Below, piece after piece: positions 4,618-48,303 of a DNA stretch of 64,000 nucleotides (positions are counted from its first letter, which is position 1; each line of letters opens with the position of its first letter). The notes beneath the pieces are model-generated. The model ran no database searches and was not told the DNA's origin. It worked only from the letters and a program-made list of their open reading frames with translations. Source of the stretch: Vulcanimicrobiota bacterium (GTDB taxonomy: Bacteria; Vulcanimicrobiota; Vulcanimicrobiia; Vulcanimicrobiales; Vulcanimicrobiaceae); NCBI GenBank assembly GCA_963833095.1, contig CAWHWQ010000002.1, positions 96,001 to 160,000 of the forward strand, read 5' to 3'. The translations under genes and the position numbers were made by a program.

Positions 4618-4641
4618 TCCCCCCGGTGGTATTGGGCAGGA

Positions 4642-34290: not shown

Positions 34291-35226
34291 TTACGCAACA
34301 TCTCTCACGTCGCGACGCGCGAGCGCATACCCCACGAGCCGATCGACTAACGCTTCATAGGAAATTCCCACGGCCGCACACGCGTCGGGCACGAGGCTCG
34401 TTGCGGTAAGGCCGGGTAAGGTATTTATCTCCAAAATCTGTGGGCGGCCCTCTTTGGTCACGATGAAATCGGTGCGCGAGTAATCGCGCAGCCCAAGCAG
34501 ACGGTGTACCGACAACGCAATCATCTGCAACCGCGCGGCGAGATCTTCGTCGATCCGCGCCGGCACGATGTGCGTGCTGCCGCCGGGCGCATATTTTGCA
34601 TCGAAGGTATAGAATTCATCGGCGTTTGGAATGATTTCGATAACCGGAAGCGCTTCTTCGCCCAGAATCGCGACGGTGAACTCGCGTCCGTCCAAATATT
34701 CCTCAGCCATGATCTGCGAATACGTCTTGGCTGCCGCAAGCATGGCACTGGTCCACTGTTCGTGCGTTTTCACGATCGCAACGCCGAGCGCGCTTCCTTC
34801 AAAGCGCGGCTTGATCACCAGCGGCAGATCCAGCGAGCCGGGCAAGAGCGGCAGCGTGCCGCCCGAGAGATCGAAGACGTCCCACGCCGCCGTCGGGAGG
34901 CCTTCGGCGGCGAGCAGCTTCTTGGTGAGATGCTTATCCATCGCAAGCGCCGCGGCTTCCACGCCGCTGCCGGTGTACGGAATGCCCAAGAAATCGAGCA
35001 GCGCCTGCACGTGTCCGTCTTCGCCGCCCGGTCCGTGCAACGCGTTGAAGACCACGTCGGGCGCAATCTCGCGAATCGCATCGAGAAAGCGTTGATCGTA
35101 ATCGAGCGATTGCGCGTCATAGCCGAGCGCTTGAAGCGCGCGCATGACGCCGGACCCGGTGCGAATCGAGATCTCGCGTTCCGCGCTCGATCCACCCATA
35201 ACGACTGCTACTCTAGCGTTCTTCAT
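34291..35226 (-). CDS. ddl: D-alanine--D-alanine ligase
   Basis: GGSSAEREIS, LHGPGGEDG, LEINTLPG. Confidence 0.95.
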   Translation of the reverse strand: MKNARVAVVMGGSSAEREISIRTGSGVMRALQALGYDAQSLDYDQRFLDAIREIAPDVVFNALHGPGGEDGHVQALLDFLGIPYTGSGVEAAALAMDKHLTKKLLAAEGLPTAAWDVFDLSGGTLPLLPGSLDLPLVIKPRFEGSALGVAIVKTHEQWTSAMLAAAKTYSQIMAEEYLDGREFTVAILGEEALPVIEIIPNADEFYTFDAKYAPGGSTHIVPARIDEDLAARLQMIALSVHRLLGLRDYSRTDFIVTKEGRPQILEINTLPGLTATSLVPDACAAVGISYEALVDRLVGYALARRDVRDVA

Positions 35227-36172
35227 CGATAAATACACCGACCAAGTGAACTTCCAATTGCAATTCCACGCCGAATTTCTCGAACACCGATCGGCGAACG
35301 CGAGCCAGGAGCGTCGCGACGTCCTTGGCGCTGGCCCCTCCGACGTTATTGATGAAGTTGGCGTGGAGCGTGGAGACTTCCGCGCCACCGGCCCGCCATC
35401 CCTTAGCCCCGGCCGCTTCGATTAGGCGCGCGGCCTTATCGCCGGGCGGATTGCGAAAACAGGAGCCGGCGTTAGGCAGCGCAACCGGTTGTGTGCTCTT
35501 GCGGCGAACCAAGCGCGCCTGCATCTCTTCGCGTACGTCCTTAGGATCGCCGCGCTCGAACGTCAGGTGCACGCGCGCGACGATCGCATCGCGCGCCAGC
35601 GTGGTCTGCCGGTAGTAGTACTGTACGGCAATCGCATGCGGCTTGGGCTTGGCCGGACTTTGCACCAGAATCTCACTGACGAACTCGCCCATCTCGCGAT
35701 CGGTCCCGGCGTTCATGCGCAGCGATCCGCCGACCGTTCCGGGGATACCGGCAAGCGAGCCGATCCCGATCGCGCCGAGCGACGCCGCGCGCGCCGTCAC
35801 CGTTTCCATCTTCGCGGAAGCACCGGCGTCCACGAAAACGCGTTCGCCTTCGATCCGCGCTTCAACCGACGTAAACGCGCCGCCCAAGCGCAGCACGATG
35901 CCGCGCAACCCGCCGTCACCTACCAGCACGTTGCTGCCGCTGCCGAGCACAAACCACGGCAGTTTGCGTTTGAAACACAACGCCATGACCGCGGCGACTT
36001 CATCTTCGCGCTCGGCGGTGGCAAATGCGTCGGCGGGTCCGCCGACTTTCCACGAGGTATACGGCGCGAGCGGCTCATCGAAGCGTACGCGATCGCCGAA
36101 CGTCTCGAGCAGCGCCGCCCGATCTTCAATCGTGAGCAGCGACGCGATCGCGAGATCGTTCGTGAGGCTCAC
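35213..36172 (-). CDS. murB: UDP-N-acetylenolpyruvoylglucosamine reductase
   Basis: VGGPAD, GSGSN, GIPGTVGG..MNAG, NAGSCFRNP, HANF. Confidence 0.95.
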   Translation of the reverse strand: MSLTNDLAIASLLTIEDRAALLETFGDRVRFDEPLAPYTSWKVGGPADAFATAEREDEVAAVMALCFKRKLPWFVLGSGSNVLVGDGGLRGIVLRLGGAFTSVEARIEGERVFVDAGASAKMETVTARAASLGAIGIGSLAGIPGTVGGSLRMNAGTDREMGEFVSEILVQSPAKPKPHAIAVQYYYRQTTLARDAIVARVHLTFERGDPKDVREEMQARLVRRKSTQPVALPNAGSCFRNPPGDKAARLIEAAGAKGWRAGGAEVSTLHANFINNVGGASAKDVATLLARVRRSVFEKFGVELQLEVHLVGVFIDEER

Positions 36173-37569
36173 GAAACTTTGATGTCGGCCTGGTTCGCGC
36201 GTTGGGCGAGGCGGGCCGCGACCTCGGTGATGTTGCCGGCGCCGAGCATCAGCACCAGCGCTCCGCGCGGCGCTTCCTCGAAAAGGCGGTCTTCCAACTC
36301 GTCGACCCGCGTCACGTAGGTAACGCGCGCACCCAACGCGGCGAGCGGTTCGCCGATCGAGCGCTCCGACACGCCGGGAATCGGCGGTTCGGACGCGGCG
36401 TAGATCGGCGCGAGATAGACGCGATCGGCGCCCTTGAGCGAATCGGCAAAATCGCGCGCGAGATACGCGGTTCGCGAGTAACGGTGCGGCTGAAATGCCA
36501 CGATCACCGGGCCGCGGTGATACTGCCGCGCAGCGGCGATGGTGGCACGGATGGCCGTCGGATGATGCGCGTAGTCGTCGACGAGCACCATGCGATCGGT
36601 GCGCACGAGGATATCGAAACGCCGGCGCACACCGCGAAACGCGCTCAGTCCCTGCGCGATGCGCGCAAACGGAATCTCGAGCTCGCGCGCGGTGGCAATT
36701 GCGGCCAGCGCATTCTGCACGTTGATTGCGCCAGGCACGTTGAGTTCTATCGTTCCTAGGCACACGTCGCCAACGATGACGTCGAACGACATCCCGAGGC
36801 CCTGCGAGCGCACGTTACCGGCGCGCACGCCGGCACGCGGACCGAATCCGAAGGACACCGTGCGCACACGGCGCTCGCGTTCGACCAACGAGGCGGCGAG
36901 CGGATCGTCGACGCCGACGATCGCACAACCGTCCTCGGGCAGCTTGCGCAGAAATTCTTCAAAGGCGCGCACGAGCTGGGGCAGTTCGTCGTCGCTCTGC
37001 AGATGATCGTTCTCGATGTTGGTAACGATCGCGATCTTGGGATCGAGCAACGCAAACGAGCCGTCGGACTCGTCGGCTTCGGTCACAAACCAGGGCGAGC
37101 GGCCGTCGCACGCGTTGGTCCCAAGCGAACCGTCGATACCGCCGAGCACGAGGCTCGCATCGATATCGCCCGCCCGAAGGACCGCTGCGATCATCGCCGT
37201 CGTGGTCGTTTTGCCGTGCGTTCCGCAGATCGCAATGCCGCTGCGATTGCGCAGCAGCTCGGCCAGCATCTCACCACGATGCAGCAGCGGAATGTTGCGC
37301 CGTTGCGCCGCCACATACTCTGGGTTGCGCCGATCGATCGCCGAGCTGACGATCACGGTGTGCGCGCGATCGAGGTTGGCGGCGTCGTGTCCGATCGTTA
37401 CCTCGGCGCCTTCTTCGCGCAAGCGCGCGATCAACACGGTTTCTTTGACGTCGGAGCCCGAAACGCACTGGCCGCGCGCAAGCAAAATCCGCGCGATCGC
37501 GCTCATGCCGATCCCGCCGATGCCCACGAAATGCCAGGTTTTTGCGCCTTGCTCGCTTACCGAGGTCAC
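36169..37569 (-). CDS. murC: UDP-N-acetylmuramate--L-alanine ligase
   Basis: GIGGIGMS, GTHGKTTT, EADESD, DDYAHHP. Confidence 0.97.
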   Translation of the reverse strand: MTSVSEQGAKTWHFVGIGGIGMSAIARILLARGQCVSGSDVKETVLIARLREEGAEVTIGHDAANLDRAHTVIVSSAIDRRNPEYVAAQRRNIPLLHRGEMLAELLRNRSGIAICGTHGKTTTTAMIAAVLRAGDIDASLVLGGIDGSLGTNACDGRSPWFVTEADESDGSFALLDPKIAIVTNIENDHLQSDDELPQLVRAFEEFLRKLPEDGCAIVGVDDPLAASLVERERRVRTVSFGFGPRAGVRAGNVRSQGLGMSFDVIVGDVCLGTIELNVPGAINVQNALAAIATARELEIPFARIAQGLSAFRGVRRRFDILVRTDRMVLVDDYAHHPTAIRATIAAARQYHRGPVIVAFQPHRYSRTAYLARDFADSLKGADRVYLAPIYAASEPPIPGVSERSIGEPLAALGARVTYVTRVDELEDRLFEEAPRGALVLMLGAGNITEVAARLAQRANQADIKVS

Positions 37570-38663
37570 ATGCGATTCTTCCGCGTCGTAAGCGCATCGA
37601 CCCGGGCGAGAATTGTCGTAACGGGATCGATTGTGCGAGCGCGCTCGGCTGCTGCGCGCAGATCCGCGAGACGACTGGGCTGCGTCACCTCGGCCAGAAT
37701 CCCGCGTAGCTTGCCGGCGATCAGCTCGCGATCGTCAACCACCACGGCCGCGCCCGCTCGCGCGACGGTGGCCGCGTTGGCGCGCTGGTGATCCTCGGCC
37801 GCGAACGGGTAGGGCACGAGAATCGCCGGGCGACCGGTGGCCGCCAGCTCGCCCAGCGTCGAGGCGCCCGCGCGCGCGAGCACCAGATCCGCCGCCGCAT
37901 AGGCGTCCCCCACATCGTTTAGATAAGCGCGAAGGGCGCCGCCGTTGTCACCCTGCGTGTGCCGGAGGGCTGCCTTCACTCGGTCGTACTCGTTTTCGCC
38001 GGTCACGTGGATCAGTTGCCAGCCTTCGGGCAAGCCGTCACTCTGGAGCAACGAGGTCAACGCGTCGTTGATCGAACGCGCTCCTTGGCTGCCGCCCATG
38101 GCAAGCAGCGTATTGCGTTTCGACGAGAGTCCCAAGCGCTCGATTGCCGCATCGCGTGACGGTAAGGTGCGTAGCGAGGCGCGCACCGGAATGCCGGTCT
38201 GCACGTACTTGCCGGCAAACCGCGGATCACCGCCGGGGAACGCGCCCCACACTTCGTCGACCAGCGGCGCCAGCAGCCGGTTGGTGAGGCCCGGACGCGC
38301 ATTGGGTTCGAGCAACGCGATCTTGGCGTGGATGCGTTTGAATTGACGCAGGATGCGCGCGGCAAGCACGACCGGCAGCGCGACATAGCCTCCAGTTGCG
38401 ATCACGATGTCGGGCTTGAGGCGGGGCAGCACGTTCAGCGCTTGAACGATGCCGGCGAGATTGACGTAGGCGCGTTTCGCGGGCGCACTCTTTACCGTGA
38501 TCAGCGGATAGCCGGCGTTCGGCACGATGGTTGCTTCAAGGCGATCGGCCGCACCGATGAAGGTGACGTTGGCGCGTTCGCCCAGCGCCTGCGCGATCGC
38601 TATGGCCGGATAGAGATGACCGCCGGTGCCGCCGCCGGTAAAGACGACGTTTAATCGATCCAT
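37566..38663 (-). CDS. murG: Lipid II GlcNAc transferase
   Basis: GGGTGGHLYP, GGSQGA, RAGAST, HQRANA. Confidence 0.96.
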   Translation of the reverse strand: MDRLNVVFTGGGTGGHLYPAIAIAQALGERANVTFIGAADRLEATIVPNAGYPLITVKSAPAKRAYVNLAGIVQALNVLPRLKPDIVIATGGYVALPVVLAARILRQFKRIHAKIALLEPNARPGLTNRLLAPLVDEVWGAFPGGDPRFAGKYVQTGIPVRASLRTLPSRDAAIERLGLSSKRNTLLAMGGSQGARSINDALTSLLQSDGLPEGWQLIHVTGENEYDRVKAALRHTQGDNGGALRAYLNDVGDAYAAADLVLARAGASTLGELAATGRPAILVPYPFAAEDHQRANAATVARAGAAVVVDDRELIAGKLRGILAEVTQPSRLADLRAAAERARTIDPVTTILARVDALTTRKNRM

Positions 38664-39601
38664 TCGATGTCTCGCGCGTGGCCGGTGCTCGAGGCAATCA
38701 GTTGCTCATTGCCGCCCGGCCAGACGCGCAAACGCGTTTGGTAGCGGCGCGTCGGGTGATCGAATTCCATGCGCAGCCAGGCAAACGGACTTTGCCCAGT
38801 GGCTTGCTCCCCGATTGCTTGGATGGTTCCGGAAAGCCGCGCGCGATCGTCTTTCGAAAGGTGATCCGCCACCACCGACTGCATCACGACGGTCGCATAG
38901 CCGGTTTTCGGTTCGACACGATGCGACAGCCATTCAAACATATCGGCTTGTTCGACCACGAGCGGGAGGTTGCGCGCGGCGTCAATTGCCTCGTGAAGCC
39001 GCGCGATGCGTTCGGCGTCGTCAGCCCACACGAACGAGAGCAAGCGCAGCCGATCTTTTTCGTCGTTGATATCGAGCGGGTGCAGATCGCACGCCGCGCG
39101 TTCTGCGATAACGCCATCCTCGCCGCACAGGCGCGTGTTCAGTCCCGCGCTTGCACCAATTTCGAATAGCCGCAAAGGCAGACCGGTGTTTCGTGCAAAG
39201 GCCGAGAGCCCGGCGGACAGCACGGTCCCGCGCAGGACCTCATTCGTCTGCGGCGTCTCGTCGAAGAGCTCGCCGATGCGCTCCTCGCGCGAGGCGAGCA
39301 GTTCTTGCGCGAGTTCCCAAATTGCCTCGGCATCGCCGTCGCCGCCGCACGACGGAAACCGAGCTGCCAACTCCGGCGATTCGCCGCTGAGCGCGAGAAA
39401 GTGCAGCGCGCCCATTAGGCGCACGCCCGGCGTCGACGCCGCCGCGCGCGACGGCACGTCGGTAAAGAAGTCGTGAACGACACCGCGCGCGCGGTAGTCG
39501 TCCAGCGCGAGTTGCGCGACCCGCGCATAGAGCGGGGAGCCCATGACGGCGAACGCTTCGATTTGCTGTTCGAAGCGCCGTACGACCGGATCGGCGATCA
39601 C
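38651..39601 (-). CDS. DUF2332-like protein (methyltransferase-like fold) inside the dcw operon
   Basis: GSPLY, PQTNEV.R, LFEIGASAGLN, LLSFVWAD, WLRME; GTG overlaps ftsW stop. Confidence 0.8.
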   Translation of the reverse strand: MIADPVVRRFEQQIEAFAVMGSPLYARVAQLALDDYRARGVVHDFFTDVPSRAAASTPGVRLMGALHFLALSGESPELAARFPSCGGDGDAEAIWELAQELLASREERIGELFDETPQTNEVLRGTVLSAGLSAFARNTGLPLRLFEIGASAGLNTRLCGEDGVIAERAACDLHPLDINDEKDRLRLLSFVWADDAERIARLHEAIDAARNLPLVVEQADMFEWLSHRVEPKTGYATVVMQSVVADHLSKDDRARLSGTIQAIGEQATGQSPFAWLRMEFDHPTRRYQTRLRVWPGGNEQLIASSTGHARDIEWID

Positions 39602-40746
39602 GTTTGCGCGAGGCGCTGTCCGCGACCGACGTTTGCGATCAGGGCGACCGCTACGAGGTTGACGATCAACGAGCTGCCGCCGAACGAAATGAACGGCAAC
39701 GGCACACCGGTGACCGGCCACGACGACGTCACGACGCCGATATTGACGAAGGCTTGAATCACCACGATCGACACGCAGCCGATCACCAAAAAGAAGCCGA
39801 ACCGATCCGGCGCCGCGATCGCGATCTTGATTGCGCGATAGCCGAACACGATGAAGAGCACGACGACTGCAAGCGCGCCGACCAGGCCCAGTTCTTCGCC
39901 CAGAATCGAAAAAATGAAATCGGTATATTGTTCGGGCAAATAAAAGAACTTCGCGCGCGAGTCGCCCAGGCCGACGCCGAAGAGGCCGCCGCTTCCAAGC
40001 GCCAACAGCGATTGCACGATGTGGAAGCCCGCGTTTTGCGGATCTTTCCACGGATTCAAGAAGGCAAAGACACGCGCACGCTTGTACGGGCTTGCCAGCA
40101 CTTCCACGATCACCGCCGGCGTGGTGGCAAGCAAGATCACGAAGAGGTGCGTGAGTCGCGCGCCTGCGGCAAAGAACATTGCGAAAGCGATCATCACCAG
40201 CAGGCTGGCGGTGCCCATGTCGGGTTCTTTGAGCACGAGTACGGCCATCAGCACAACCGGAATGCACAGCGGGAACAGGCCCCGGACCAGCGAGACGATG
40301 CGCTCGCCGCGCGAGGCCAGCATCGCTGCGAGATAGATCACCAGCGAGAGCTTGGCGAACTCCGACGGCTGAAACGAAAATGACGATGCGCCGACCCAGC
40401 GGCGCGCGCCGTTGACCGTGACGCCGACGTGCGGCACCAGCACCAGCACCAGCGAGATGAACGTTGCGACCAGCAAATACGGCGCCCAGCGTTTGAGCTG
40501 ATGGTAATCGAGTTTGTAAGCGCCAAAGGCTACGATCAACCCGACCACCAGCCACACCAGTTGTCGTTTGGCGTAGTAGGCGACGTCGTGATGTTCCAGA
40601 TACGCCGTCGCACTCGAGGCCGAAAAAATCATTACCAGACCAATGCCGACCAGCGACGCCACAGCAAAAAACAGTAGCGTGTCGGGCGGCGCAGCCGCGT
40701 ACGATCGGCGCGGATTCGTGCTCGCGCGGGCGTTCGCGTTAAGCAC
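39598..40746 (-). CDS. ftsW: SEDS peptidoglycan polymerase FtsW
   Basis: GARRW, QPSEFAK, EPDMGT, LPEQYTDF, GVPLPFISFGG. Confidence 0.96.
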   Translation of the reverse strand: MLNANARASTNPRRSYAAAPPDTLLFFAVASLVGIGLVMIFSASSATAYLEHHDVAYYAKRQLVWLVVGLIVAFGAYKLDYHQLKRWAPYLLVATFISLVLVLVPHVGVTVNGARRWVGASSFSFQPSEFAKLSLVIYLAAMLASRGERIVSLVRGLFPLCIPVVLMAVLVLKEPDMGTASLLVMIAFAMFFAAGARLTHLFVILLATTPAVIVEVLASPYKRARVFAFLNPWKDPQNAGFHIVQSLLALGSGGLFGVGLGDSRAKFFYLPEQYTDFIFSILGEELGLVGALAVVVLFIVFGYRAIKIAIAAPDRFGFFLVIGCVSIVVIQAFVNIGVVTSSWPVTGVPLPFISFGGSSLIVNLVAVALIANVGRGQRLAQT

Positions 40747-42133
40747 CAGCCGGCGCTCGCATAGCCTGCACGGCCGCGGTAAACTGTTCGCCGCGATCTT
40801 CGGCCGAACGGAACATATCGAACGACGCGCAGCCCGGAGAGAGCAGCACCGCGTCGCCCGGCACCGCAAGCTCGCGTGCCTTCTGCACGGCGTCGATCAT
40901 CGAGTCCGCGTGCACGATCTCGATGCCCAATGCGTGGGCTGCGATTTGGTCGGCCGCTTCGCCCATAACCACCAGCGCCTTAGCGCGTTGGCGAATCGCG
41001 ACGCCCATTTCAACGAAATCGGTGCCCTTCGAGCGCCCGCCCGCAATGAGCACGATCGGCCGCGCGTAGGCATGCAGCGCGGCTACCACGGAACCAGGAT
41101 TGGTCGACTTGGAATCGTCGACGTAGAGCACGCCGTCGATTTCGCCCGCGCTCTCGAGGCGATGCGGCATCGCGCGGAAACTCATCACCGCTTCGCGCAG
41201 CGCGGCGGTCTCGCACCCGACGACGTACGCTGCCAACAGCGCAGCCATCACGTTCTGCACGTTGTGCGCGCCGGCGAGCGGAATCTCGTCTTTGCGCATC
41301 ACTTTGACCGGGCGTGGATCGCCGCTGATCGGCGCGTAGACGATATCGTCGCCGTGCACGTAGATCGTCGCGTTGTCGTGGCGATCGGCGAGAGTGAACC
41401 AAAGCTGACGCGAGCGGATGTTGCGTTCGCTGGTGCTGACGTCGAGCGAGGTCACGCGCCCGTCGTCGAGGTTGCCCACGAAGAAATCGCCGAATGATTG
41501 ATTGGCGAAGATGCGGTACTTGGCTTCCGCGTACTCGTCCATCGAATGATAGCGATCCAGATGATCCGGCGCGACGTTGAGGAGCACGGCGACGCGTGGT
41601 TTGAACGCGCGAATCGTCTCGAGCTGGAAGGAGGAGACTTCAGCCACCACCCAATCAGTGGTGCGCGCGTCGATCACTTCGTCGATCAGCGGGTTGCCGA
41701 TGTTGCCGCCCACGCGCACGCCGCGTCCGCTGCAGCGCAGCATATGCCCGATCAATGCGGTGGTGGTCGATTTGCCTTTGGTGCCGGTGACGGCGATGAC
41801 CGGCGCCTTGCACAACCGGAAGGCGACTTCAATCTCGCCCAGCACCGGTACTGCGTGGTTTTGCACCGCGATCACTACCGCCGAGTTGAGCGGGACGCCG
41901 GGCGAGAGCACCGCCGACGTGAGCCCGCCGACGATCGGTTCGAGTTGATCCGGTGCGATGAAACGCGCGCCGGTCGCCTCGACGATATCGATCGCGTCTT
42001 GCAGCTCGCTCGCCGGCTTTTCGTCGGTAGCATAGACGGTCGCTCCGCGCGAACGCAACACGCGCACGCAGGCAAGGCCACTTTTACCGAGGCCAATGAC
42101 GAGAATCGTCTCGCGCGCATCAAAGGTCATCAT
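40739..42133 (-). CDS. murD: UDP-MurNAc-L-Ala--D-glutamate ligase
   Basis: GLGKSG, GTKGKSTT, EVSSFQL, DDSKSTN, SPGCASFD. Confidence 0.96.
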   Translation of the reverse strand: MMTFDARETILVIGLGKSGLACVRVLRSRGATVYATDEKPASELQDAIDIVEATGARFIAPDQLEPIVGGLTSAVLSPGVPLNSAVVIAVQNHAVPVLGEIEVAFRLCKAPVIAVTGTKGKSTTTALIGHMLRCSGRGVRVGGNIGNPLIDEVIDARTTDWVVAEVSSFQLETIRAFKPRVAVLLNVAPDHLDRYHSMDEYAEAKYRIFANQSFGDFFVGNLDDGRVTSLDVSTSERNIRSRQLWFTLADRHDNATIYVHGDDIVYAPISGDPRPVKVMRKDEIPLAGAHNVQNVMAALLAAYVVGCETAALREAVMSFRAMPHRLESAGEIDGVLYVDDSKSTNPGSVVAALHAYARPIVLIAGGRSKGTDFVEMGVAIRQRAKALVVMGEAADQIAAHALGIEIVHADSMIDAVQKARELAVPGDAVLLSPGCASFDMFRSAEDRGEQFTAAVQAMRAPAGA

Positions 42134-43089
42134 CGTACGAGAAACCATCCGGCTGCGGAGAGCACGAGCGAAGCGGTCCAAAAACGTGCCGTGACCTTGG
42201 TCTCGGGCCAACCACCGAGTTCGAAGTGGTGATGCAGCGGGCTCATGCGAAAAATGCGCTTGCCGCCCGTTGCTTTGAAATAGCCGACTTGCATGATCAC
42301 TGAAAGAGCTTCGGCCACAAACACGCCGCCGATGAGGATCAAGAGCAGCATCTCGCCTTCCAGAATAGCGATGCCGGAAAGCAAGGCGCCCAACGCAAGC
42401 GAGCCGGTGTCACCCATGAAGATTTTTGCGGGATGCCGATTGTACACGAGAAAGCCGAAACACGCGCCGATACCGATGAGTGCAGCATAGGCCGGCACGA
42501 GCAGGTCCATCGAAAATCCGACCGCCGCGAAGACGACGAGCGGCGGAATCATCGTCCCGGTCGCGAGGCCGTCGAGCCCGTCGGTAAGATTGACGGCGTG
42601 GATCGTCCCCGTGACCGCCAGGATGCCGAGCACGAGCCACAGCCAGTGCGGCACAAGTAACGCATACGTACCGGCGTGGAAGATCACGTCGCGCGGATAG
42701 ATCGCGGTGGTCGCGTCGATCATGCGCAGGAAAATGATGGCGACCAGTGCCGTTGCAAGCAACTTTGTGCGCGCGCGCAAACCTTGGTTGCGCCCGCGCG
42801 TGATCCCGAGCATATCGTCGGCGAAGCCGATGGCGCCACAGGCGAGCACGAGAAAGACGATCGGCGCGGCAAACGGCGCCGAGGGATTCACGAGCAAGAA
42901 CAGCATGGGTACGAGGAAGGCGATGCCGCCCATCGTGGGCGTGCCCGTCTTGGTTTGGTGCGACGCCGGCGCATCTTCATAGGCGTGCTGAGCAAGCTGC
43001 ATACGCCGCAGCAGCGGTAGCAGCAGACCGGCAACCGCCAGGGAGAACACGAACCCGATGCCACAGAAGATCGCGATCGTCGCTAACAT
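42130..43089 (-). CDS. mraY: Phospho-MurNAc-pentapeptide transferase
   Basis: KTGTPTMGG, NLTDGLDGL, FMGDTGS, PLHHHFE. Confidence 0.97.
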   Translation of the reverse strand: MLATIAIFCGIGFVFSLAVAGLLLPLLRRMQLAQHAYEDAPASHQTKTGTPTMGGIAFLVPMLFLLVNPSAPFAAPIVFLVLACGAIGFADDMLGITRGRNQGLRARTKLLATALVAIIFLRMIDATTAIYPRDVIFHAGTYALLVPHWLWLVLGILAVTGTIHAVNLTDGLDGLATGTMIPPLVVFAAVGFSMDLLVPAYAALIGIGACFGFLVYNRHPAKIFMGDTGSLALGALLSGIAILEGEMLLLILIGGVFVAEALSVIMQVGYFKATGGKRIFRMSPLHHHFELGGWPETKVTARFWTASLVLSAAGWFLVR

Positions 43090-43757
43090 TGCAGCGGGTT
43101 CTCCCCGGCGGCGCGCCACTTGAGCACCACGATCGGCGTTTGTTCGTCGCCGTTGCCGTGGGGGTTGTCGAGCAGCGCCTGTTCGACCGCGGCGCGATCG
43201 ACGCCGCGCGAGGCTCCCAGCACTTTAGCTTTGTGCAGATCGTTGGCATCGACGATCGCGCAGGCTACGCCGGTCACGGCGGCGATCGTTTCGCAGACAT
43301 CGTCGGGATCGCGTGGTGACAACACGATTGCGCGCTCGTAGGGCGGCATCGTTCCGGTGTAGCCGTCGATCGCGGCGATCGCCTCGCCCATCAATTCGTA
43401 GAATACGCCGCGCTTGCCAAAAACGCGGCCGACCGCATGCAGCACTGAAGCGAAAAACACGCGCCATGCGCCGACCTGATCGATCACGAGTTGGACGGAT
43501 TCGGGCTGACTGACCGTCGCGAGCGCGCCGGCTCGGCGCGCAAGCACGTAGGCTAAACGCGACGGGCGAATGTGCTCCGCCGCGACGAACTCACCTTGCG
43601 CGATGGCTACGGCTGTTTCGGAGATCGCGATCACGTCGCCAGAACGCGCGATGCCATGCACTGCCGCCGCGACGAGCACGCTAAGGTCGTCGCCCTCGCG
43701 CACGATGCGCGTGCGGACGGGGATTGCAACCAAACCGGGAATGCGCGTGGCCGTCAA
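43083..43757 (-). CDS. CofE-like (F420-0:gamma-glutamyl ligase family) protein inside the dcw operon
   Basis: IVREGDDL, GDVIAISE, AIDG, LSPRDPD, AIVDAND, DNPHGNGDEQTP; overlaps murF stop and mraY start. Confidence 0.8.
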   Translation of the reverse strand: MTATRIPGLVAIPVRTRIVREGDDLSVLVAAAVHGIARSGDVIAISETAVAIAQGEFVAAEHIRPSRLAYVLARRAGALATVSQPESVQLVIDQVGAWRVFFASVLHAVGRVFGKRGVFYELMGEAIAAIDGYTGTMPPYERAIVLSPRDPDDVCETIAAVTGVACAIVDANDLHKAKVLGASRGVDRAAVEQALLDNPHGNGDEQTPIVVLKWRAAGENPLQC

Positions 43758-45133
43758 CGCCGTAACTCCTCGACGATTTCCTCTAACTTATATTTGCGCG
43801 AACCCTTGAGCAACACCGCGTCGCCGGCTCGCGCGTGATCGCGCACCCACCGCGCTGCCTGTTCGTTCGTCATGAAGGGCACGATGCGCTCCGAGGGGAG
43901 CCCTGCGCTGCGCGCTCCTAGAGCAAGCTCGCCCGCGAATTCGCCGCCGACCAGCATCACGTCGACCTTGGTGGCCGCGGCATGTCCGCCGACACGGCGA
44001 TGTAAGTCGGCCGCTCCCTCGCCAAGCTCGGCCATGCTTGCAAGCAGGGCGATATGGCGCGGCGCAGATTCGGCCGCAAAGGCGTCGAGCGCCGCCATCA
44101 TCCCGGCGGCGTTGGCGTTGTAGGCATCGAAGATCAAAACCACGCCGCTCTGAAGCGCGATGCGCTCGTAACGCCCGCTGGGCAATTCGATTTGCGGAAT
44201 CGCCGCGACGATCTGACGCGGATCGATGCCGTGCTCACGCGCTGCGGCGATCGCGGCTGCGAGATTGGCGCGATTGTGCAAGCCGGGAACGCGCGCGTCG
44301 ATCGAGTAGTTGTCGTCGCGGTCGCCGTCGATTTCGAGCCACTGCTGGGCGCCCGAGATCGCGCTGACGCGCCCGTGCATCGGGATGTCGCCGCCGACTT
44401 CGCCCGCAAAAAACCAATGCGAGGGTTTGGCTAGCGACGGCGCGCGGCGAATCGACGTGACGTCGCGCGCATTGAGAATCGCGCGCGCGCCGGTCGAAAA
44501 GAGCGCCCACTTCGTTTCTTCGAGCCGCTCGCGCGTGCCCATGATTTCCAAATGCGCATCACCGACGTTGGTAAGAATGCCCAGATCCGGCCGCGCGGCG
44601 CGTACCAGCCGCTCGATGTCGCCGTAGTGCCGCGCGCCCAACTCGATGACGAGCAACTCGTGCTTGTCGTTGTCGGCGGCTAGCAGCAGTTTGCTCACGC
44701 CGACTTCGTTATTCTCATTGGCGGGCGAGGCCAAGATGCGATCGCCGTAGCGCACGGAAAGCAGTTGCGCGGCAAAGGCTTTGGTCGTGGTCTTCCCCGC
44801 GCTGCCGGTGATCGCGAGCACGCGTCCGCGAAAATGCGCGCGCGCCACGCCGGCCAGATCCAAGTAGGCCTGCAAGGTTTCCTCGACCACGAGCGTGGTC
44901 GTGCCCGCAACGGCGGCATCGGGATCCTCGACGATCAAGGCTTTCGCGCCGCGCTCGACGGCTTCGCGTGTGTAGGCATGGCCGTCGAAGTGCTCGCCGC
45001 GCAGCGCAAGAAATGTTTGCCCCGGCACAATGGTGCGGGTGTCGCTCACGACGTCGACGTGCGACGGCGCCGCGTCGATATCGAGCACCTGCGCCTGCGT
45101 CCCCTTGACCGCTTCGTCGAACGTCAGCTTCAT
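43754..45133 (-). CDS. murF: UDP-MurNAc-tripeptide--D-Ala-D-Ala ligase
   Basis: SDTR, FDGH, TGSAGKTTTK, DAYNAN, LKGSR. Confidence 0.95.
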   Translation of the reverse strand: MKLTFDEAVKGTQAQVLDIDAAPSHVDVVSDTRTIVPGQTFLALRGEHFDGHAYTREAVERGAKALIVEDPDAAVAGTTTLVVEETLQAYLDLAGVARAHFRGRVLAITGSAGKTTTKAFAAQLLSVRYGDRILASPANENNEVGVSKLLLAADNDKHELLVIELGARHYGDIERLVRAARPDLGILTNVGDAHLEIMGTRERLEETKWALFSTGARAILNARDVTSIRRAPSLAKPSHWFFAGEVGGDIPMHGRVSAISGAQQWLEIDGDRDDNYSIDARVPGLHNRANLAAAIAAAREHGIDPRQIVAAIPQIELPSGRYERIALQSGVVLIFDAYNANAAGMMAALDAFAAESAPRHIALLASMAELGEGAADLHRRVGGHAAATKVDVMLVGGEFAGELALGARSAGLPSERIVPFMTNEQAARWVRDHARAGDAVLLKGSRKYKLEEIVEELRR

Positions 45134-46581
45134 GTTCGCGCACCTCGCGCGGCGAGCGCCTCGCGCGCAACGGCGACGTCATCGAAGGGCAGCGTCTGCG
45201 TGCCGATGATTTGATACGTTTCGTGGCCTTTGCCTGCGATGAGCACCACGTCGCCCGGCGCGGCTTCTTCGATCGCGCGGCGAATGGCGATCCGGCGATC
45301 GATTTCGGCCACATGCGGATGCGCGCCGATTCCGGTTTCGATGTCGGCCACGATCGCTTGCGGCGATTCACTGCGCGGATTGTCGCTGGTGACGTAAACG
45401 CGATCTGCAAACGCTGCTGCAATGCGGCCCATCTCCGGGCGCTTGCCGCGATCGCGATCGCCGCCGCACCCGAACACGACGGCCAGCTTGTGCGGCGTCG
45501 TTTCGCGCAGTGCGATCAGCGCGTTCTCGAGCGAATCGGGGGTATGCGAGTAGTCGACCACGACGTCGATATCCCCACCGCTGACGTGCTCCATGCGTCC
45601 GGCCACGCGCACGAGCGTATCGAGTCCGCGCGCGCAGGTATCCAGATCGATGCCCAGCGTGATCGCGACAGCGATAGCGGCGAGCGCGTTTTGCACGTTG
45701 AAAAGGCCGGGAAGATGCACGCGCATCGCCGTGCCGTCGACGTCAAATGACGTTCCCGCGGCGTCGGGTTCGACGTTGCGCGCGACAACGTCGGCATCGC
45801 CGCGCAGCGAGTAGGTCAGCGTCGGTACCTTGCGGCGCACTTCGGGGAGCCAACGCGCGCCGTGCTCGTCGTCGATATTGAGCACCGCGGCCTGGGTCAT
45901 GTGAAAGAGGCGATGTTTTGCGGCGGCGTAGGCTTCGAGCGTCTGATGAAAGTCGAGATGATCGCGCGTGATATTAGTCAACGCCGCGACGCGAAAGTGC
46001 ACGTCCTCGACGCGATCGAGGGCCAGGGCATGCGAGCTGACTTCCATGGCAACGGCCCAAGCCCCGAGTTCGCGCATCTGCGCGAGCAGACCGTGCAACT
46101 CGGGCGGCTGCGGCGTGGTCTGATCGAGCGTCCACGAACGATCGCGAAAGTGCGCGCCGACCGTGCCGATCACCCCGCACGGACGACCCGAGGTTTCTAC
46201 AATTGCAGCGATCATGCGCGTGGTCGTGGTTTTTCCGTTGGTGCCGGTGACGCCAAGCACGTCAACCGCGCGTGACGGATCGCCGTAAAAGGCCGCCGCG
46301 ATCACCGAAAGCGCGCGGCGCGAATCCGGCACGGCAATCGCCGTGACGTGCTCGGGCACATCGAGCGCGCGCGCTTCTTCCAAGACGACCGCGGTCGCGC
46401 CATTGTGGGCTGCGGCTTGGATAAAGGCGTGTCCGTCGGTGTGCTCCCCGGCAAGCGCAACGAACATCGCGCCGGGCGTGACCCGGCGCGAATCGATCTC
46501 GATGCTTGCAATCTCGCGCGCCGAGTCGCCGATGACACGCGTACTTGCGGGCAAGCGTGCGACGAGCTGCGCGATCGTCAC
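45130..46581 (-). CDS. murE: UDP-MurNAc-dipeptide--meso-DAP ligase
   Basis: GTNGKTT, MEVSSH, DYSHTPD, DNPR (DAP-type motif), GKGHE. Confidence 0.96.
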   Translation of the reverse strand: MTIAQLVARLPASTRVIGDSAREIASIEIDSRRVTPGAMFVALAGEHTDGHAFIQAAAHNGATAVVLEEARALDVPEHVTAIAVPDSRRALSVIAAAFYGDPSRAVDVLGVTGTNGKTTTTRMIAAIVETSGRPCGVIGTVGAHFRDRSWTLDQTTPQPPELHGLLAQMRELGAWAVAMEVSSHALALDRVEDVHFRVAALTNITRDHLDFHQTLEAYAAAKHRLFHMTQAAVLNIDDEHGARWLPEVRRKVPTLTYSLRGDADVVARNVEPDAAGTSFDVDGTAMRVHLPGLFNVQNALAAIAVAITLGIDLDTCARGLDTLVRVAGRMEHVSGGDIDVVVDYSHTPDSLENALIALRETTPHKLAVVFGCGGDRDRGKRPEMGRIAAAFADRVYVTSDNPRSESPQAIVADIETGIGAHPHVAEIDRRIAIRRAIEEAAPGDVVLIAGKGHETYQIIGTQTLPFDDVAVAREALAARGART

Positions 46582-48303
46582 GGAAGAACTCCCGCATGCA
46601 GCATCGCTTCGCGCGCGATCTTCACGAAGACCGGGGCGGCCACGATGCCGCCGTAGTAGGCGCCCTGCGGATCTTCGATCTTGACATAGATGACGTAACG
46701 CGGATGCTCGGCTGGAATCATGCCGATGAACGACGCTGCGTATGCTCCGGTCGAGTATTGCCCGTTGACGACCATTTGCGCGGTGCCGGTTTTGCCGGCG
46801 GTGGTGTAGCCCGGAATTTGCGCGACGCCTTTGCCGGTGCCGCCGGTCACGACCGCGCGTAAGAACGAGCGCAACTCAGCCGCAATCTTTTGCGAGAAGA
46901 CGCGATGCTCGACTTCGGGCGGGTAATCGTAGACGACTTTGCCGTGCTGATCTTCGATCGCCTTGACAATGCGCGGGCGAAGCAGCGTACCGCCATTGGC
47001 GATCGCGCAGTAGTAGCGCGCCATCGCAATCGGCGTTACCGAGACGCCTTGACCAAACGCCATCGTGGGCAGCGACAGTTCGCTCCACTGCGCGGGCGCG
47101 GGCACGATTCCCGGACTCTCGCCGGGCAACTCGACGTCGCTGACTTCGCCGAATCCGGCGTTGCGTTCCATGTCGTAGAAATTCTGTTGGCCGGTCGCAA
47201 GCCCGACTTCTGCCGCGCCGACGTTGTGCGAATACTCGACGATCTCTTGCAGCGTCTCGGTGCTGCTGCGCACCGGCATGTCGTCGTCGGCGTTGTGAAT
47301 CGTGTGGCCGTCGAGCGTCAGCGTCTCGCGCGCGGGGAAGCGCGTCTGCAGATTCACGCGACCCGAGGCCAGCGCGGCGGCGGCGGTGACGAGTTTGAAG
47401 GTCGAGCCGGGCTCATAGGTATCCGCCACGGCACGGTCGTCGTAATCGCGCGCCGGATATTTCCAGAAGTGGTTCGGATCGAAGTGTGGGACGTTCGCCA
47501 TGGCCAAGATCTCGCCGGTCCACGGATCCATCACGATCGCGGTGCCGTCTTTCGCGTGATACTTCGCGACTTCTTGATCGAGGGCTTGCTTCGGTGACGA
47601 ACTGCAGGTATGAGTCGACGGTCAATTCGAGAGAATACCCGGGCTGCGCCGCGCTCACCACGTGCTCGTGGCCAAAGGGAATCGGCCGTCCGAAATCGTC
47701 GGTTTCGAGCGTCACCTGGCCCGACTGGCCGCGCAGCAGTTGATCGAACTGGTATTCCAGACCGTCGAGCCCATTTTCATCGGTACCGACGAAACCCAGA
47801 ATCGTCGAGGCCATGTTGCCGACCATGTCGATGCGTTTTCCGGTCGGCTCTTCTTTGAGCGCGATACCGCCCATGTCGGCTTTGCGCACGCGATCGGCGA
47901 TCTCGACGGGGACCTTGCGCGCGATCCAGACGAACCAGATCGACTTGTCGTGCAACTCGGTGACGATCGCCGGATCGAGTTTACCGAAGATCGCCTGGAG
48001 CTTTGCGACGGTGGCGTCGGGATCGGTGAGGTCGTGCGGCACGGCGTAGACGCTCTCGGAGGGGAGAGAACGCACCAGCACCGTGCCGTTACGGTCGGCA
48101 ATGAATCCGCGCCGCGCAAAAACCTCGACCGTGTCGGAACGCTGTGCGAGCGCTCGAGCGGCGAGGGTTGGGCCTTGCACGACTTGGACGAGATAGAGAC
48201 GCGCGCACAGATACGCGCCCATCAGCGCGACCAGATAGAAAAAGAGTTTCGCGCGCATCGGTGCGACGCGCGCGAAAGCTCGATGATGGAGCGTGCGCGC
48301 CAC
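46578..48303 (-). CDS. ftsI: Class B penicillin-binding protein FtsI (+1 frameshift near 47590)
   Basis: RRG.I.DRNG dimerisation domain; EPGSTFK, SHN, KTGT. Confidence 0.93.

What the first reader, a model, noticed from the sequence alone, without database searches (positions are those of the whole stretch)
43083..43757. CofE-like amide ligase embedded between murF and mraY: candidate peptidoglycan-precursor modifying enzyme
Seen: a 224-aa ORF with F420-0:gamma-glutamyl-ligase-family motifs overlaps the murF stop (TTGA) and the mraY start, so it is part of the dcw operon at the step between UDP-MurNAc-pentapeptide and lipid I; no other F420 gene is in the window. Established: CofE forms a nucleotide-dependent amide bond between a carboxylate and an amine; some diderm Terrabacteria (e.g. 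Selenomonas) amidate the D-Glu alpha-carboxyl of the stem peptide with diamines, which is linked to outer-membrane tethering. Inference: this protein ligates an amine (polyamine or amino acid) to the stem peptide or lipid II rather than making F420, i.e. an uncharacterised cell-wall modification pathway.
Basis: partly seen in the sequence, partly recalled or inferred. Interest (0 to 1): 0.82.

Follow-up and report, generated by a model that had tools for sequence, protein, structure and literature searches.

The report
CofE-like enzyme in cell-wall operon
A conserved gene shaped like the coenzyme-F420 glutamate ligase sits between two cell-wall precursor genes in a soil bacterium with no F420 pathway, and its relatives occur almost only in bacteria lacking the known enzyme that amidates the cell-wall peptide, so it is probably an undescribed cell-wall-modifying ligase.

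Summary
A 224-aa ORF (43083-43757, minus strand) matches Pfam F420_ligase above threshold and folds like CofE. It overlaps the murF stop and the likely mraY start.

It is not a true CofE. It scores 37.7 bits against a 180.65-bit cut-off and lacks CofE's C-terminal F420-covering half. The genome shows no CofD, CofC or CofH above cut-off but has a normal folC.

murF-X-mraY is kept in 32 of 32 loci of its class. Other classes of the phylum carry a membrane-anchored form elsewhere, beside a true CofE where F420 genes exist.

The family is widespread (Clostridia, CPR, Microbacterium, Bacteroidales). It is fused to or adjacent to peptidoglycan genes far more often than nearby control genes are.

New here: it is nearly exclusive with MurT. 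Overlap was 1 of 19 in Clostridia, 0 of 17 in an actinobacterial order and 0 of 10 in a clostridial order.

Best reading: a nucleotide-dependent ligase acting on a carboxylate of the peptidoglycan stem peptide, probably the D-iso-glutamate alpha-carboxylate. The chemistry is untested.

The scan noted the murF-X-mraY gene before in other genomes.

The parts
43083..43757 (-). X: 224-aa CofE-fold protein (PF01996 superfamily, not a CofE equivalog)
43766..43771 (-). GAGGAG Shine-Dalgarno, 8 nt upstream of the X TTG start, inside the 3' end of murF
   Evidence: read from the sequence
43754..45133 (-). murF (UDP-MurNAc-tripeptide--D-Ala-D-Ala ligase); its stop overlaps the X start (TTGA)
42130..43089 (-). 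mraY (start taken at ATG 43089; the longest ORF starts at GTG 43119); the start overlaps the X stop (ATGTTAG)
45130..46581 (-). murE, meso-diaminopimelate-adding type (NF001126 542 bits against cut-off 373)
40739..42211 (-). murD
39598..40869 (-). ftsW
37566..38663 (-). murG (245.5 bits, just under the 250.25 cut-off)
36169..37569 (-). murC
35213..36100 (-). murB (scanned from 36100; the true start was not determined)
34291..35250 (-). ddl (scanned from 35250)

Best explanation
X belongs to a widespread, uncharacterised branch of the CofE fold that has been re-tooled from F420 to peptidoglycan precursors.

Proposed mechanism (inferred). Like CofE, X uses a nucleoside triphosphate and divalent metal to phosphorylate a substrate carboxylate, then lets an amine attack the acyl phosphate to form an amide. 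The substrate would be the stem peptide of UDP-MurNAc-pentapeptide or lipid I/II, on the cytoplasmic face of the membrane. The most likely site is the free alpha-carboxylate of the gamma-linked D-glutamate. That would make X a non-homologous counterpart of MurT; in the fused forms an AsnB-type glutaminase would play the GatD role. The nucleophile (ammonia, an amino acid or a diamine) is not known.

My odds:
- about 0.8 that X acts on or with peptidoglycan precursors and not on F420;
- about 0.5 that it is an amide ligase on a stem-peptide carboxylate;
- about 0.3 that the site is the D-iGlu alpha-carboxylate.

Shown: fold, synteny, absence of the F420 pathway, fusions, neighbourhoods, complementarity with MurT. 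Inferred: nucleotide use, substrate, site, product.
For: 1. Fold. The AlphaFold model has pLDDT 87.7. The only Foldseek PDB matches with E<=0.001 are 5 chains or entries of A. fulgidus CofE, at TM 0.54-0.58; the next hit has E 0.72. hhalign against true CofE gives probability 96.5% over X 12-175.

2. Not CofE.
- TIGR01916 scores 37.7 bits against a cut-off of 180.65.
- The last ~90 residues of CofE have no counterpart in X.
- CofD is strong only in 38 of 151 phylum genomes, all outside the class that has dcw-linked X.
- A true CofE (198-265 bits) was found in 5 of 5 F420-positive relatives searched. In three of them it lies within about 1.5 kb of the strong CofD match. In G062, G058 and G003 the long-form X paralogue shows up as a separate weak hit.

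3. Synteny. murF-X-mraY-murD stands in 32 of 32 class-level loci, with translational coupling.

4. Membrane anchoring. In 18 of 18 loci from other classes X is the C-terminal domain of a roughly 340-520-aa protein with one N-terminal hydrophobic helix followed by basic residues (my reading by the positive-inside rule). That puts X at the cytoplasmic membrane face.

5. Fusions (30 architectures scanned). Amidase_3-X in 6, AsnB-type glutamine amidotransferase-X in 5, X-TM-polysaccharide deacetylase in 1, X-adenylate kinase in 1, and MurF-X in 1 (a single 2.9-kb contig).

6. Neighbours outside the phylum. 20 of 129 immediately flanking ORFs, in 18 of 68 loci, are peptidoglycan or amino-sugar genes: murB x6, glmS x3, nagB, PBP2, murJ, YkuD x2, M23/LysM, VanW, GH25, alr, mraY and ftsW. 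The control at positions +-4/5 gave 6 of 129. Fisher p 0.003.
- alr lies 2 genes away in L141, and its cluster of like ORFs spans 7 loci at +2/+3.
- dapA lies directly downstream of AsnB-X in 2 of 5 loci.

7. Complementarity with MurT_C (PF08353).
- Clostridia: X in 19 and MurT in 175 of 300 genomes, both in 1.
- Order of a Microbacterium: 17 and 64 of 201, both in 0.
- Order of Caloramator: 10 and 83 of 109, both in 0.
- Own phylum: X in 149 and MurT in 0 of 151.
- Uncorrected Fisher p values are 8e-7, 1e-3 and 1e-7.

8. Precedent for re-use of the fold. The Chlamydia CofE homologue CT611 complements E. coli folC (PMC1971073, passages).
Against: - No assay exists.
- Alignment to CofE shows changed residues in the shared N-terminal motif: CofE 'THKxxSKAEGR' against X 'SETAVAIAQGE', so Lys becomes Ile and Glu becomes Gln.
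- The two programs disagree by two residues on which X residue matches the CofE Asp of 'TDTNG'. Retention of the nucleotide and metal site is therefore not established.
- Residues D150/T151 as metal ligands of CofE are recalled; the structure paper was not held.
- The MurT complementarity is not corrected for phylogeny. Kinship of those genomes is withheld, kin are not independent, the class and order samples of Clostridia overlap, and the unscored genomes differ by one.
- Many genomes have neither gene, and one has both (G428).
- The most frequent neighbours (murB, glmS) point to early precursor steps rather than to the stem peptide.
- Most neighbourhoods (50 of 68 loci) show no cell-wall gene next to X.
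- Stand-alone X has no evident glutaminase partner.
Confidence: 0.5

Rival explanations
1. X acts on the lactyl carboxylate of UDP-MurNAc rather than on the stem peptide. It would be a CofE-fold analogue of MurC or of the murein-peptide ligase Mpl, attaching an amino acid or a recycled peptide to UDP-MurNAc.
For: CofE's natural substrate F420-0 ends in a lactyl carboxylate (PMC8498797 and PMC10861534, passages). UDP-MurNAc, the product of MurB, does too (established chemistry). murB is the commonest direct neighbour, in 6 of 68 loci, within a conserved X-murB-PHP-rapZ-yvcK-whiA cluster. Six clusters of Amidase_3-X fusions lack an obvious signal peptide. That would fit release and re-ligation of stem peptides.
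Against: It does not explain the exclusion with MurT. It does not explain the position after murF, where the lactyl group is already blocked. A normal murC is present in the same operon. The AsnB-type fusions fit amidation better.
Confidence: 0.15
2. X is not a ligase. It is a precursor-binding, regulatory or scaffolding protein that has kept the CofE fold but lost catalysis, for instance handing UDP-MurNAc-pentapeptide to MraY.
For: Several CofE motif residues are replaced, and the GRPWR segment and C-terminal half are missing. The gene is coupled to murF and mraY. YvcK, a CofD-family protein (PF01933), lies at position +4 in the six clostridial murB loci. From recall, YvcK is not an F420 enzyme and binds UDP-sugars.
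Against: About 20 polar positions are invariant or nearly so across 30 very diverse members, including D41, Q54, R99, D131, D170, N172, D173, N198 and T207. That looks like an active site. Fusions to an adenylate kinase and to glutamine amidotransferases suggest nucleotide- and ammonia-using chemistry.
Confidence: 0.12
3. X is a FolC2-type enzyme that glutamylates folate or another cofactor, as the Chlamydia CofE homologue CT611 does.
For: There is a precedent in the same superfamily (PMC1971073, PMC4161248, passages).
Against: A canonical folC is present in this genome (TIGR01499 331 bits against cut-off 162.65). No folate gene is next to X in the window, and none appeared among the 129 direct neighbours scanned.
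Confidence: 0.04
4. X is the genome's true CofE and makes F420.
For: Sources name it 'coenzyme F420-0:L-glutamate ligase', and it matches PF01996.
Against: It scores 37.7 bits against the 180.65-bit equivalog cut-off. No CofD was found and no CofC or CofH above cut-off, in an assembly that is 80.7% complete. No strong CofD match occurs in any of the 82 genomes of the class. The F420-covering part of CofE is missing. True CofE and the X family coexist as separate genes in relatives.
Confidence: 0.02
5. X modifies another envelope polymer or metabolite (capsule, teichoic-type polymer, poly-gamma-glutamate), and the link to peptidoglycan genes is indirect.
For: Some neighbours are not peptidoglycan genes: PGA_cap (L092), ATPgrasp_ST (4 Microbacterium loci), an AIR-synthase-like gene (7 loci), and a glycolipid-type cluster next to one AsnB-X.
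Against: The strictly conserved place between murF and mraY, and the excess of peptidoglycan genes among direct neighbours and fusions.
Confidence: 0.07

Closest known systems
[quoted passage not shown]
   Same: Same fold. The N-terminal two thirds are homologous (hhalign 96.5%). They share the 'GDxxxxxE/S..xxxxQ/EGR' region, the 'xLxPxDPD' segment and an acidic strand end. The presumed chemistry is acyl-phosphate-mediated amide formation.
   Different: X fails the equivalog cut-off. It has no counterpart of CofE's last ~90 residues; by recall these hold the domain-swapped hairpin and the residues that hold the deazaflavin. Motif residues are changed. There is no F420 pathway in the genome. 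X sits in the dcw operon.
FolC2 (Chlamydia trachomatis CT611), a CofE-family folylglutamate synthase
   Same: A CofE-superfamily member recruited to a non-F420 substrate in an organism without F420 genes (PMC1971073, PMC4161248; passages).
   Different: FolC2 replaces a missing folC and lies in the folate cluster. Here folC is present and the context is cell-wall synthesis. I could not compare the sequences, because no CT611 sequence was in hand.
MurT/GatD, lipid II isoglutaminyl synthase (function recalled, not from a call)
   Same: The proposed job is the same: ATP/NTP-dependent activation of the D-iGlu alpha-carboxylate of a lipid-linked precursor at the inner face of the membrane, with a glutaminase supplying ammonia. 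In the AsnB-X fusions a glutamine amidotransferase domain is attached. The distributions are nearly exclusive.
   Different: There is no homology. MurT is a Mur-ligase-family protein with the MurT_C domain, while X has the CofE fold. Stand-alone X has no known glutaminase partner, and the product may not be an amide of ammonia.
MurC / Mpl (ligases acting on the lactyl carboxylate of UDP-MurNAc)
   Same: They ligate an amine to a lactyl carboxylate, as CofE does on F420-0. murB is the commonest neighbour of X-family genes.
   Different: They are Mur-ligase fold and ATP-dependent. murC is present beside X, and Mpl-type function for X is untested.

Membership tests
CofE (TIGR01916 / NF009809 equivalogs, F420-0:L-glutamate ligase) | Score over the curated equivalog cut-off | tested here: not met
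   37.7 bits against 180.65, and 35.1 against 274. True CofE genes of the same phylum score 198-265 bits.
CofE (TIGR01916 / NF009809 equivalogs, F420-0:L-glutamate ligase) | Partner genes of F420 synthesis (CofD/FbiA, CofC/FbiD, CofG/H or FbiC) in the genome | tested here: not met
   CofD: none. CofC: best 33.8 bits against 105. CofH: best 126 bits against 374 (assembly 80.7% complete). No strong CofD match in any of the 82 genomes of the class.
CofE (TIGR01916 / NF009809 equivalogs, F420-0:L-glutamate ligase) | C-terminal half with the GRPWR segment and hairpin that cover the deazaflavin | tested here: not met
   The hhalign alignment ends at X 175 / CofE 153. X has about 50 residues left where CofE has about 90. 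Pfam covers only profile positions 2-131 of 218.
CofE (TIGR01916 / NF009809 equivalogs, F420-0:L-glutamate ligase) | GTP/Mn2+ site residues | tested here: inconclusive
   An acidic 'DAND' stands where CofE has 'TDTNG', but the register differs by 2. Lys and Glu of CofE's 'SKAEGR' are Ile and Gln in X. The ligand residues are recalled, not read (paper not held).
PF01996 F420_ligase superfamily (CofE fold) | Pfam gathering score and fold | tested here: met
   55 bits against 25. Foldseek E 9e-10 to 2PHN, TM 0.57.
FolC2 (CofE-family folylglutamate synthase) | Replaces a missing folC and lies with folate genes | tested here: not met
   folC is present at 331 bits against 162.65. The neighbours are mur genes.
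MurT (Mur-ligase-type lipid II isoglutaminyl synthase subunit) | Mur ligase middle domain plus MurT_C (PF08353) | tested here: not met
   X has only PF01996. It may work like MurT but is not a member.
MurT (Mur-ligase-type lipid II isoglutaminyl synthase subunit) | Functional equivalence, shown as complementary distribution | tested here: met
   Genomes with both genes: 1 of 19, 0 of 17 and 0 of 10 X-carrying genomes, where MurT stands in 58%, 32% and 76% of the sample. Not corrected for phylogeny.
MurT (Mur-ligase-type lipid II isoglutaminyl synthase subunit) | Amidation of D-iGlu in lipid II | not testable with these tools
   This needs an enzyme assay or muropeptide analysis.

The most novel reading that the evidence does not exclude
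The X family is a missing, widely distributed second solution to derivatising the D-iso-glutamate alpha-carboxylate of peptidoglycan. It would be a CofE-fold, nucleotide-dependent ligase working on lipid II or UDP-MurNAc-pentapeptide in bacteria that lack MurT/GatD: Eremiobacterota, many Clostridia, candidate-phyla-radiation bacteria, Microbacterium and others. In some lineages it is fused to its own glutaminase. In others it may attach an amino acid or diamine instead of ammonia.
Probability: 0.3. Interest if true: 0.85.

Novelty: new variant of a known kind. Interest (0 to 1): 0.75.

Why it matters
Peptidoglycan precursor synthesis is among the best-mapped pathways in bacteria and a major antibiotic target, yet here a conserved enzyme-like gene sits inside its core operon with no assigned step. 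The family is not confined to an uncultured soil phylum. One search found more than 500 genome loci, in gut Clostridia, ultra-small CPR bacteria and cultured Microbacterium and Caloramator strains, so it can be tested at the bench now.

If it is the MurT-independent route to modifying D-iso-glutamate, three things follow:
- it would explain how MurT-less lineages tune cross-linking and lysozyme or immune recognition of their wall;
- it would add a second enzyme fold to stem-peptide chemistry;
- it would show the F420 tail-building fold being re-used on another gamma-glutamyl-containing molecule.

It would also correct a systematic mis-annotation ('coenzyme F420-0:L-glutamate ligase') that falsely suggests F420 use in many genomes.

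Tried and rejected
1. Complex prediction of MurF with X (alignments A6, A7) returned 'no answer'. It is no evidence either way.

2. The search for related loci with the broad alignments A2 and A3 failed for lack of a conserved stretch. A 4-sequence alignment (A4) worked. That biases the 80 loci towards the 'DNPLGQ' subgroup, and only the best 80 of 507 were seen.

3. Idea: X replaces MurD where it sits between mraY and ftsW (L133). Rejected, because that genome has murD elsewhere at 317 bits.

4. Idea: X marks B-type peptidoglycan of Microbacteriaceae. Not supported. Only 17 of 201 genomes of the order carry it. Six are at 72% identity or more to the Microbacterium protein, the query's own genome among them. 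Eleven are 43-49% matches in 814-1225-aa frames. Family labels are withheld, so a finer test was impossible.

5. FolC2-type function: rejected.

6. SLH/OmpM link: no SLH found in the genome.

7. The N-terminal domain of the long form is only LEA_2-like by structure, with no functional lead.

8. The MurF-X fusion (P0125) comes from one 2.9-kb contig with one member. The X-MraY 'fusions' (P0176, P0251, P0257) may be frame errors at the overlapping gene ends. I give them no weight.

9. The CofE structure paper PMC2678844 was not held, so ligand residues could not be read.

10. Literature: no paper tying a CofE-like gene to murF/mraY, or naming such a family, turned up in searches. The Eremiobacterota isolate paper gives no peptidoglycan chemotype and no F420 mention (passages only).
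Full report
**What is there.**
The minus strand of the window carries a complete division and cell-wall (dcw) cluster. Its order is rsmH, ftsI (in two frames), murE (the meso-diaminopimelate-adding type), murF, X, mraY, murD, ftsW, a DUF2332 gene, murG, murC, murB, ddl. Each named gene was confirmed against NCBIfam or Pfam.

X is the ORF 43083..43757, 224 aa, with a TTG start. The start overlaps the murF stop (TTGA), and a GAGGAG lies 8 nt upstream. The stop overlaps an in-frame mraY ATG (ATGTTAG).

**What kind of protein.**
- Pfam finds F420_ligase (PF01996) at 55 bits against a threshold of 25, but only over the first 131 of 218 profile positions.
- The curated CofE equivalogs are missed by a wide margin: 37.7 bits against 180.65.
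- By sequence alone only residues 17-84 resemble A. fulgidus CofE.
- An AlphaFold model built on 29 relatives is confident (pLDDT 87.7). Its only significant PDB matches are five CofE chains or entries (E about 1e-9, TM 0.54-0.58). The next hit has E 0.72.
- A profile-profile comparison with five true CofE proteins from the same phylum gives 96.5% probability over X 12-175 and CofE 3-153, then stops. The last ~90 residues of CofE have no counterpart in the ~50 residues X has left. By recall, that part of CofE holds the GRPWR segment and the hairpin.
- PMC10861534 (section 8 read) places the deazaflavin against G153-C155, R234 of the partner chain and a domain-swapped hairpin, which are in that missing part.
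- Within the shared part, X keeps an acidic strand end ('VDAND' where CofE has 'TDTNG'). The two programs differ by two residues in register there. CofE's 'SKAEGR' reads 'AIAQGE' in X.
- That D150/T151 bind metal in CofE is my recollection. The structure paper was not held.

X is therefore a member of the fold and superfamily, not a CofE. Whether it keeps the nucleotide site is open.

**No F420 here.**
- The assembly (80.7% complete) has one PF01996 gene, which is X.
- It has no CofD match.
- It has only far sub-threshold CofC and CofH matches. I take the CofH ones to be menaquinone radical-SAM relatives; this was not tested.
- Across 151 genomes of the phylum, strong CofD matches occur in 38. 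All 38 are in families outside the class that holds the window. The 82 genomes of the window's class have nothing better than E 1.4e-6 partial hits.
- In five F420-positive relatives a true CofE (198-265 bits) was found in 5 of 5. In G058, G110 and G072 it lies within about 1.5 kb of the strong CofD match. In G062, G058 and G003 the X-type paralogue appears as a separate weak hit. The two are different genes with different jobs.
- A normal folC is present, so X is not a FolC2-type replacement as in Chlamydia (PMC1971073, PMC4161248; passages).
- The phylum tallies include one genome flagged unpublished (G128).

**Conservation and two forms.**
X relatives were found in 149 of 151 phylum genomes, and in 120 of 120 of the high-quality ones.
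- In 30 of 30 loci of the window's family (the window's own locus among them), and in 2 of 2 loci from two other families of the class, the order is murF-X-mraY-murD.
- In 18 of 18 loci from the other classes no mur gene was found nearby. There the X domain (33-43% identical) is the C-terminal part of a 343-524-aa protein with one N-terminal hydrophobic helix and a ~150-aa domain.
- Pfam sees only PF01996 in the seven of these proteins that were scanned.
- The extra domain is LEA_2-like by structure and otherwise unnamed.
- The residues just after the helix are consistently basic (my reading). By the positive-inside rule the X domain is therefore tethered on the cytoplasmic face of the membrane, where lipid I and II are made.
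Here it holds for one class only.

**The family is wide and keeps company with cell-wall genes.**
An exhaustive profile search found 745 cluster representatives at E<=1e-3.

Among 30 unusual architectures scanned:
- six clusters fuse an N-acetylmuramoyl-L-alanine amidase (Amidase_3) to X; no signal peptide is visible in the three sequences I read;
- five fuse an AsnB-type glutamine amidotransferase to X;
- one links X through a membrane helix to a polysaccharide or peptidoglycan deacetylase;
- one fuses X to adenylate kinase, and one to a GNAT;
- a MurF-X fusion rests on a single short contig, and I give it no weight.

A scan of one genome per species found at least 507 loci. The 80 kept come from Clostridia and Limnochordia, Oscillospiraceae, Bacteroidales, several candidate-phyla-radiation groups, Ignavibacteriales, WOR-3, Microbacterium and Caloramator proteoclasticus DSM 10124. 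From general knowledge, not a call, most of these groups are not known to make F420.

X was located in 68 of the 80 loci. Of their 129 directly flanking ORFs, 20 (in 18 loci) are peptidoglycan or amino-sugar genes:
- murB x6
- glmS x3
- nagB
- PBP2
- murJ
- YkuD x2
- M23/LysM
- VanW/PG_binding
- GH25
- alr
- mraY and ftsW (one CPR-sized genome reads mraY-X-ftsW-murG-murC)

The control used ORFs four or five genes away in the same loci. It gave 6 of 129: glmS x2, mreB, mreC, mraW and one LysM protein. It also gave six YvcK-type CofD-family genes, which I count apart. One-sided Fisher p is 0.003.

Recurrent local contexts:
- The clostridial context is SBP-X-murB-PHP-rapZ-yvcK-signal peptidase-whiA.
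- In Microbacterium, alr lies two genes from X in L141, and its cluster of like ORFs spans 7 loci at +2/+3.
- In actinobacterial AsnB-X loci, dapA follows directly in 2 of 5.

Against this, 50 of the 68 loci show no cell-wall gene next to X. Some neighbours point elsewhere: an AIR-synthase-like gene in 7 loci, ATPgrasp_ST in 4, and PGA_cap in 1.

**Which step?**
The position after murF, the membrane tether, and the fusions to amidotransferases all suggest the finished stem peptide on UDP-MurNAc or lipid I/II.

The known enzyme that activates a stem-peptide carboxylate at that stage is MurT with its glutaminase GatD. It amidates the alpha-carboxylate of D-iso-glutamate on lipid II (recalled knowledge). 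I therefore compared the distributions of X and the MurT_C domain (PF08353):

| Sample | X present | MurT_C present | Both |
|---|---|---|---|
| Clostridia, 300 genomes scored | 19 | 175 | 1 (G428) |
| Order around a Microbacterium, 201 genomes | 17 | 64 | 0 |
| Order around Caloramator, 109 genomes scored | 10 | 83 | 0 |
| Own phylum, 151 genomes | 149 | 0 | 0 |

Uncorrected one-sided Fisher values are 8e-7, 1e-3 and 1e-7.

Caveats on this comparison:
- The kinship of these genomes is withheld, so I cannot correct for shared ancestry.
- The two clostridial samples overlap.
- In the Caloramator-order sample the unscored genomes differ by one.
- Many genomes have neither gene.

Even so, X occurs almost only where MurT is missing, in at least five separate settings:
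- stand-alone X in Microbacterium;
- AsnB-fused X in other actinobacteria;
- at least two sequence groups in Clostridia;
- Eremiobacterota.

That pattern is what non-orthologous displacement, or competition for one site, would give. It fits the chemistry: CofE recognises and extends a gamma-glutamyl chain, and the stem peptide contains a gamma-linked D-glutamate with a free alpha-carboxylate. It also fits the fusions, where an AsnB-type glutaminase domain could feed ammonia to X as GatD does for MurT.

**Rivals.**
- The commonest neighbour, murB, together with the parallel between F420-0 and UDP-MurNAc (both end in a lactyl carboxylate), keeps alive a MurC- or Mpl-like role on UDP-MurNAc. The Amidase_3 fusions would also suit that role. 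I give it 0.15.
- A non-catalytic binding or hand-over role gets 0.12, because of the altered motif residues.
- Another envelope polymer: 0.07.
- FolC2-type: 0.04.
- True CofE: 0.02.

No SLH domain was found in this genome. The only isolate of the phylum is described as a typical diderm with thin peptidoglycan and LPS, with no wall chemistry reported (PMC9758169, passages).

**Novelty and earlier notes.**
- Four literature searches found no paper that links a CofE-like gene to murF/mraY or to peptidoglycan. The searched library lacks most subscription journals.
- This scan has noted the same murF-X-mraY gene in at least five other genomes, with the same general reading. Those notes are not independent evidence.

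**Verdict.**
This is a new variant of a known enzyme fold with a testable, specific hypothesis.

Noticed in passing
window 38651-39640 (-): A DUF2332 gene (PF10094, 245 bits) sits between ftsW and murG, a second non-canonical insertion in this dcw cluster. In L057, a relative from another family, ftsW and murG lie about 100 nt apart with no room for it.
   Followed up: partly
window 46578-48303 (-): ftsI is split into two overlapping ORFs in different frames: PBP_dimer in 47413-48303 and Transpeptidase in 46578-47534. This is a frameshift, either real or an assembly error.
   Followed up: partly
G000:C5:479069-482039 (outside the window): CofH-like radical-SAM matches (probably menaquinone MqnC/MqnE-type, not tested) are broken into six pieces in different frames. 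This hints that the assembly carries frameshift errors.
   Followed up: no
L079, L083, L087, L093, L111, L115: In six Bacillota-type loci a CofE-like gene (X) and a CofD-family gene (YvcK type, PF01933) lie in one cluster with murB and rapZ. So homologues of two consecutive F420-pathway enzymes stand together next to murB.
   Followed up: partly
L133 (G151, about 0.9 Mb genome): A second, independent dcw insertion of the family: mraY-X-ftsW-murG-murC, with murD encoded elsewhere.
   Followed up: yes
L043:6427-7608 (-) and 4626-5069 (-): In one large-genome relative the long membrane-anchored X is flanked by ddl upstream and a DUF188 gene downstream. The other six long-form loci scanned showed no cell-wall neighbour.
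   Followed up: partly
G658:C74:22511-24013: Two X-family genes lie in tandem in one clostridial genome, and three other genomes of that order carry two copies on separate contigs.
   Followed up: no
L063-L069 (Limnochordia-type loci): An AIR-synthase-related gene (AIRS + AIRS_C, about 330 aa) directly precedes X in 7 loci; in L063 it overlaps the start of X. Pyruvate kinase and phosphofructokinase lie upstream, as scanned in one locus each. A possible ATP-using partner.
   Followed up: no
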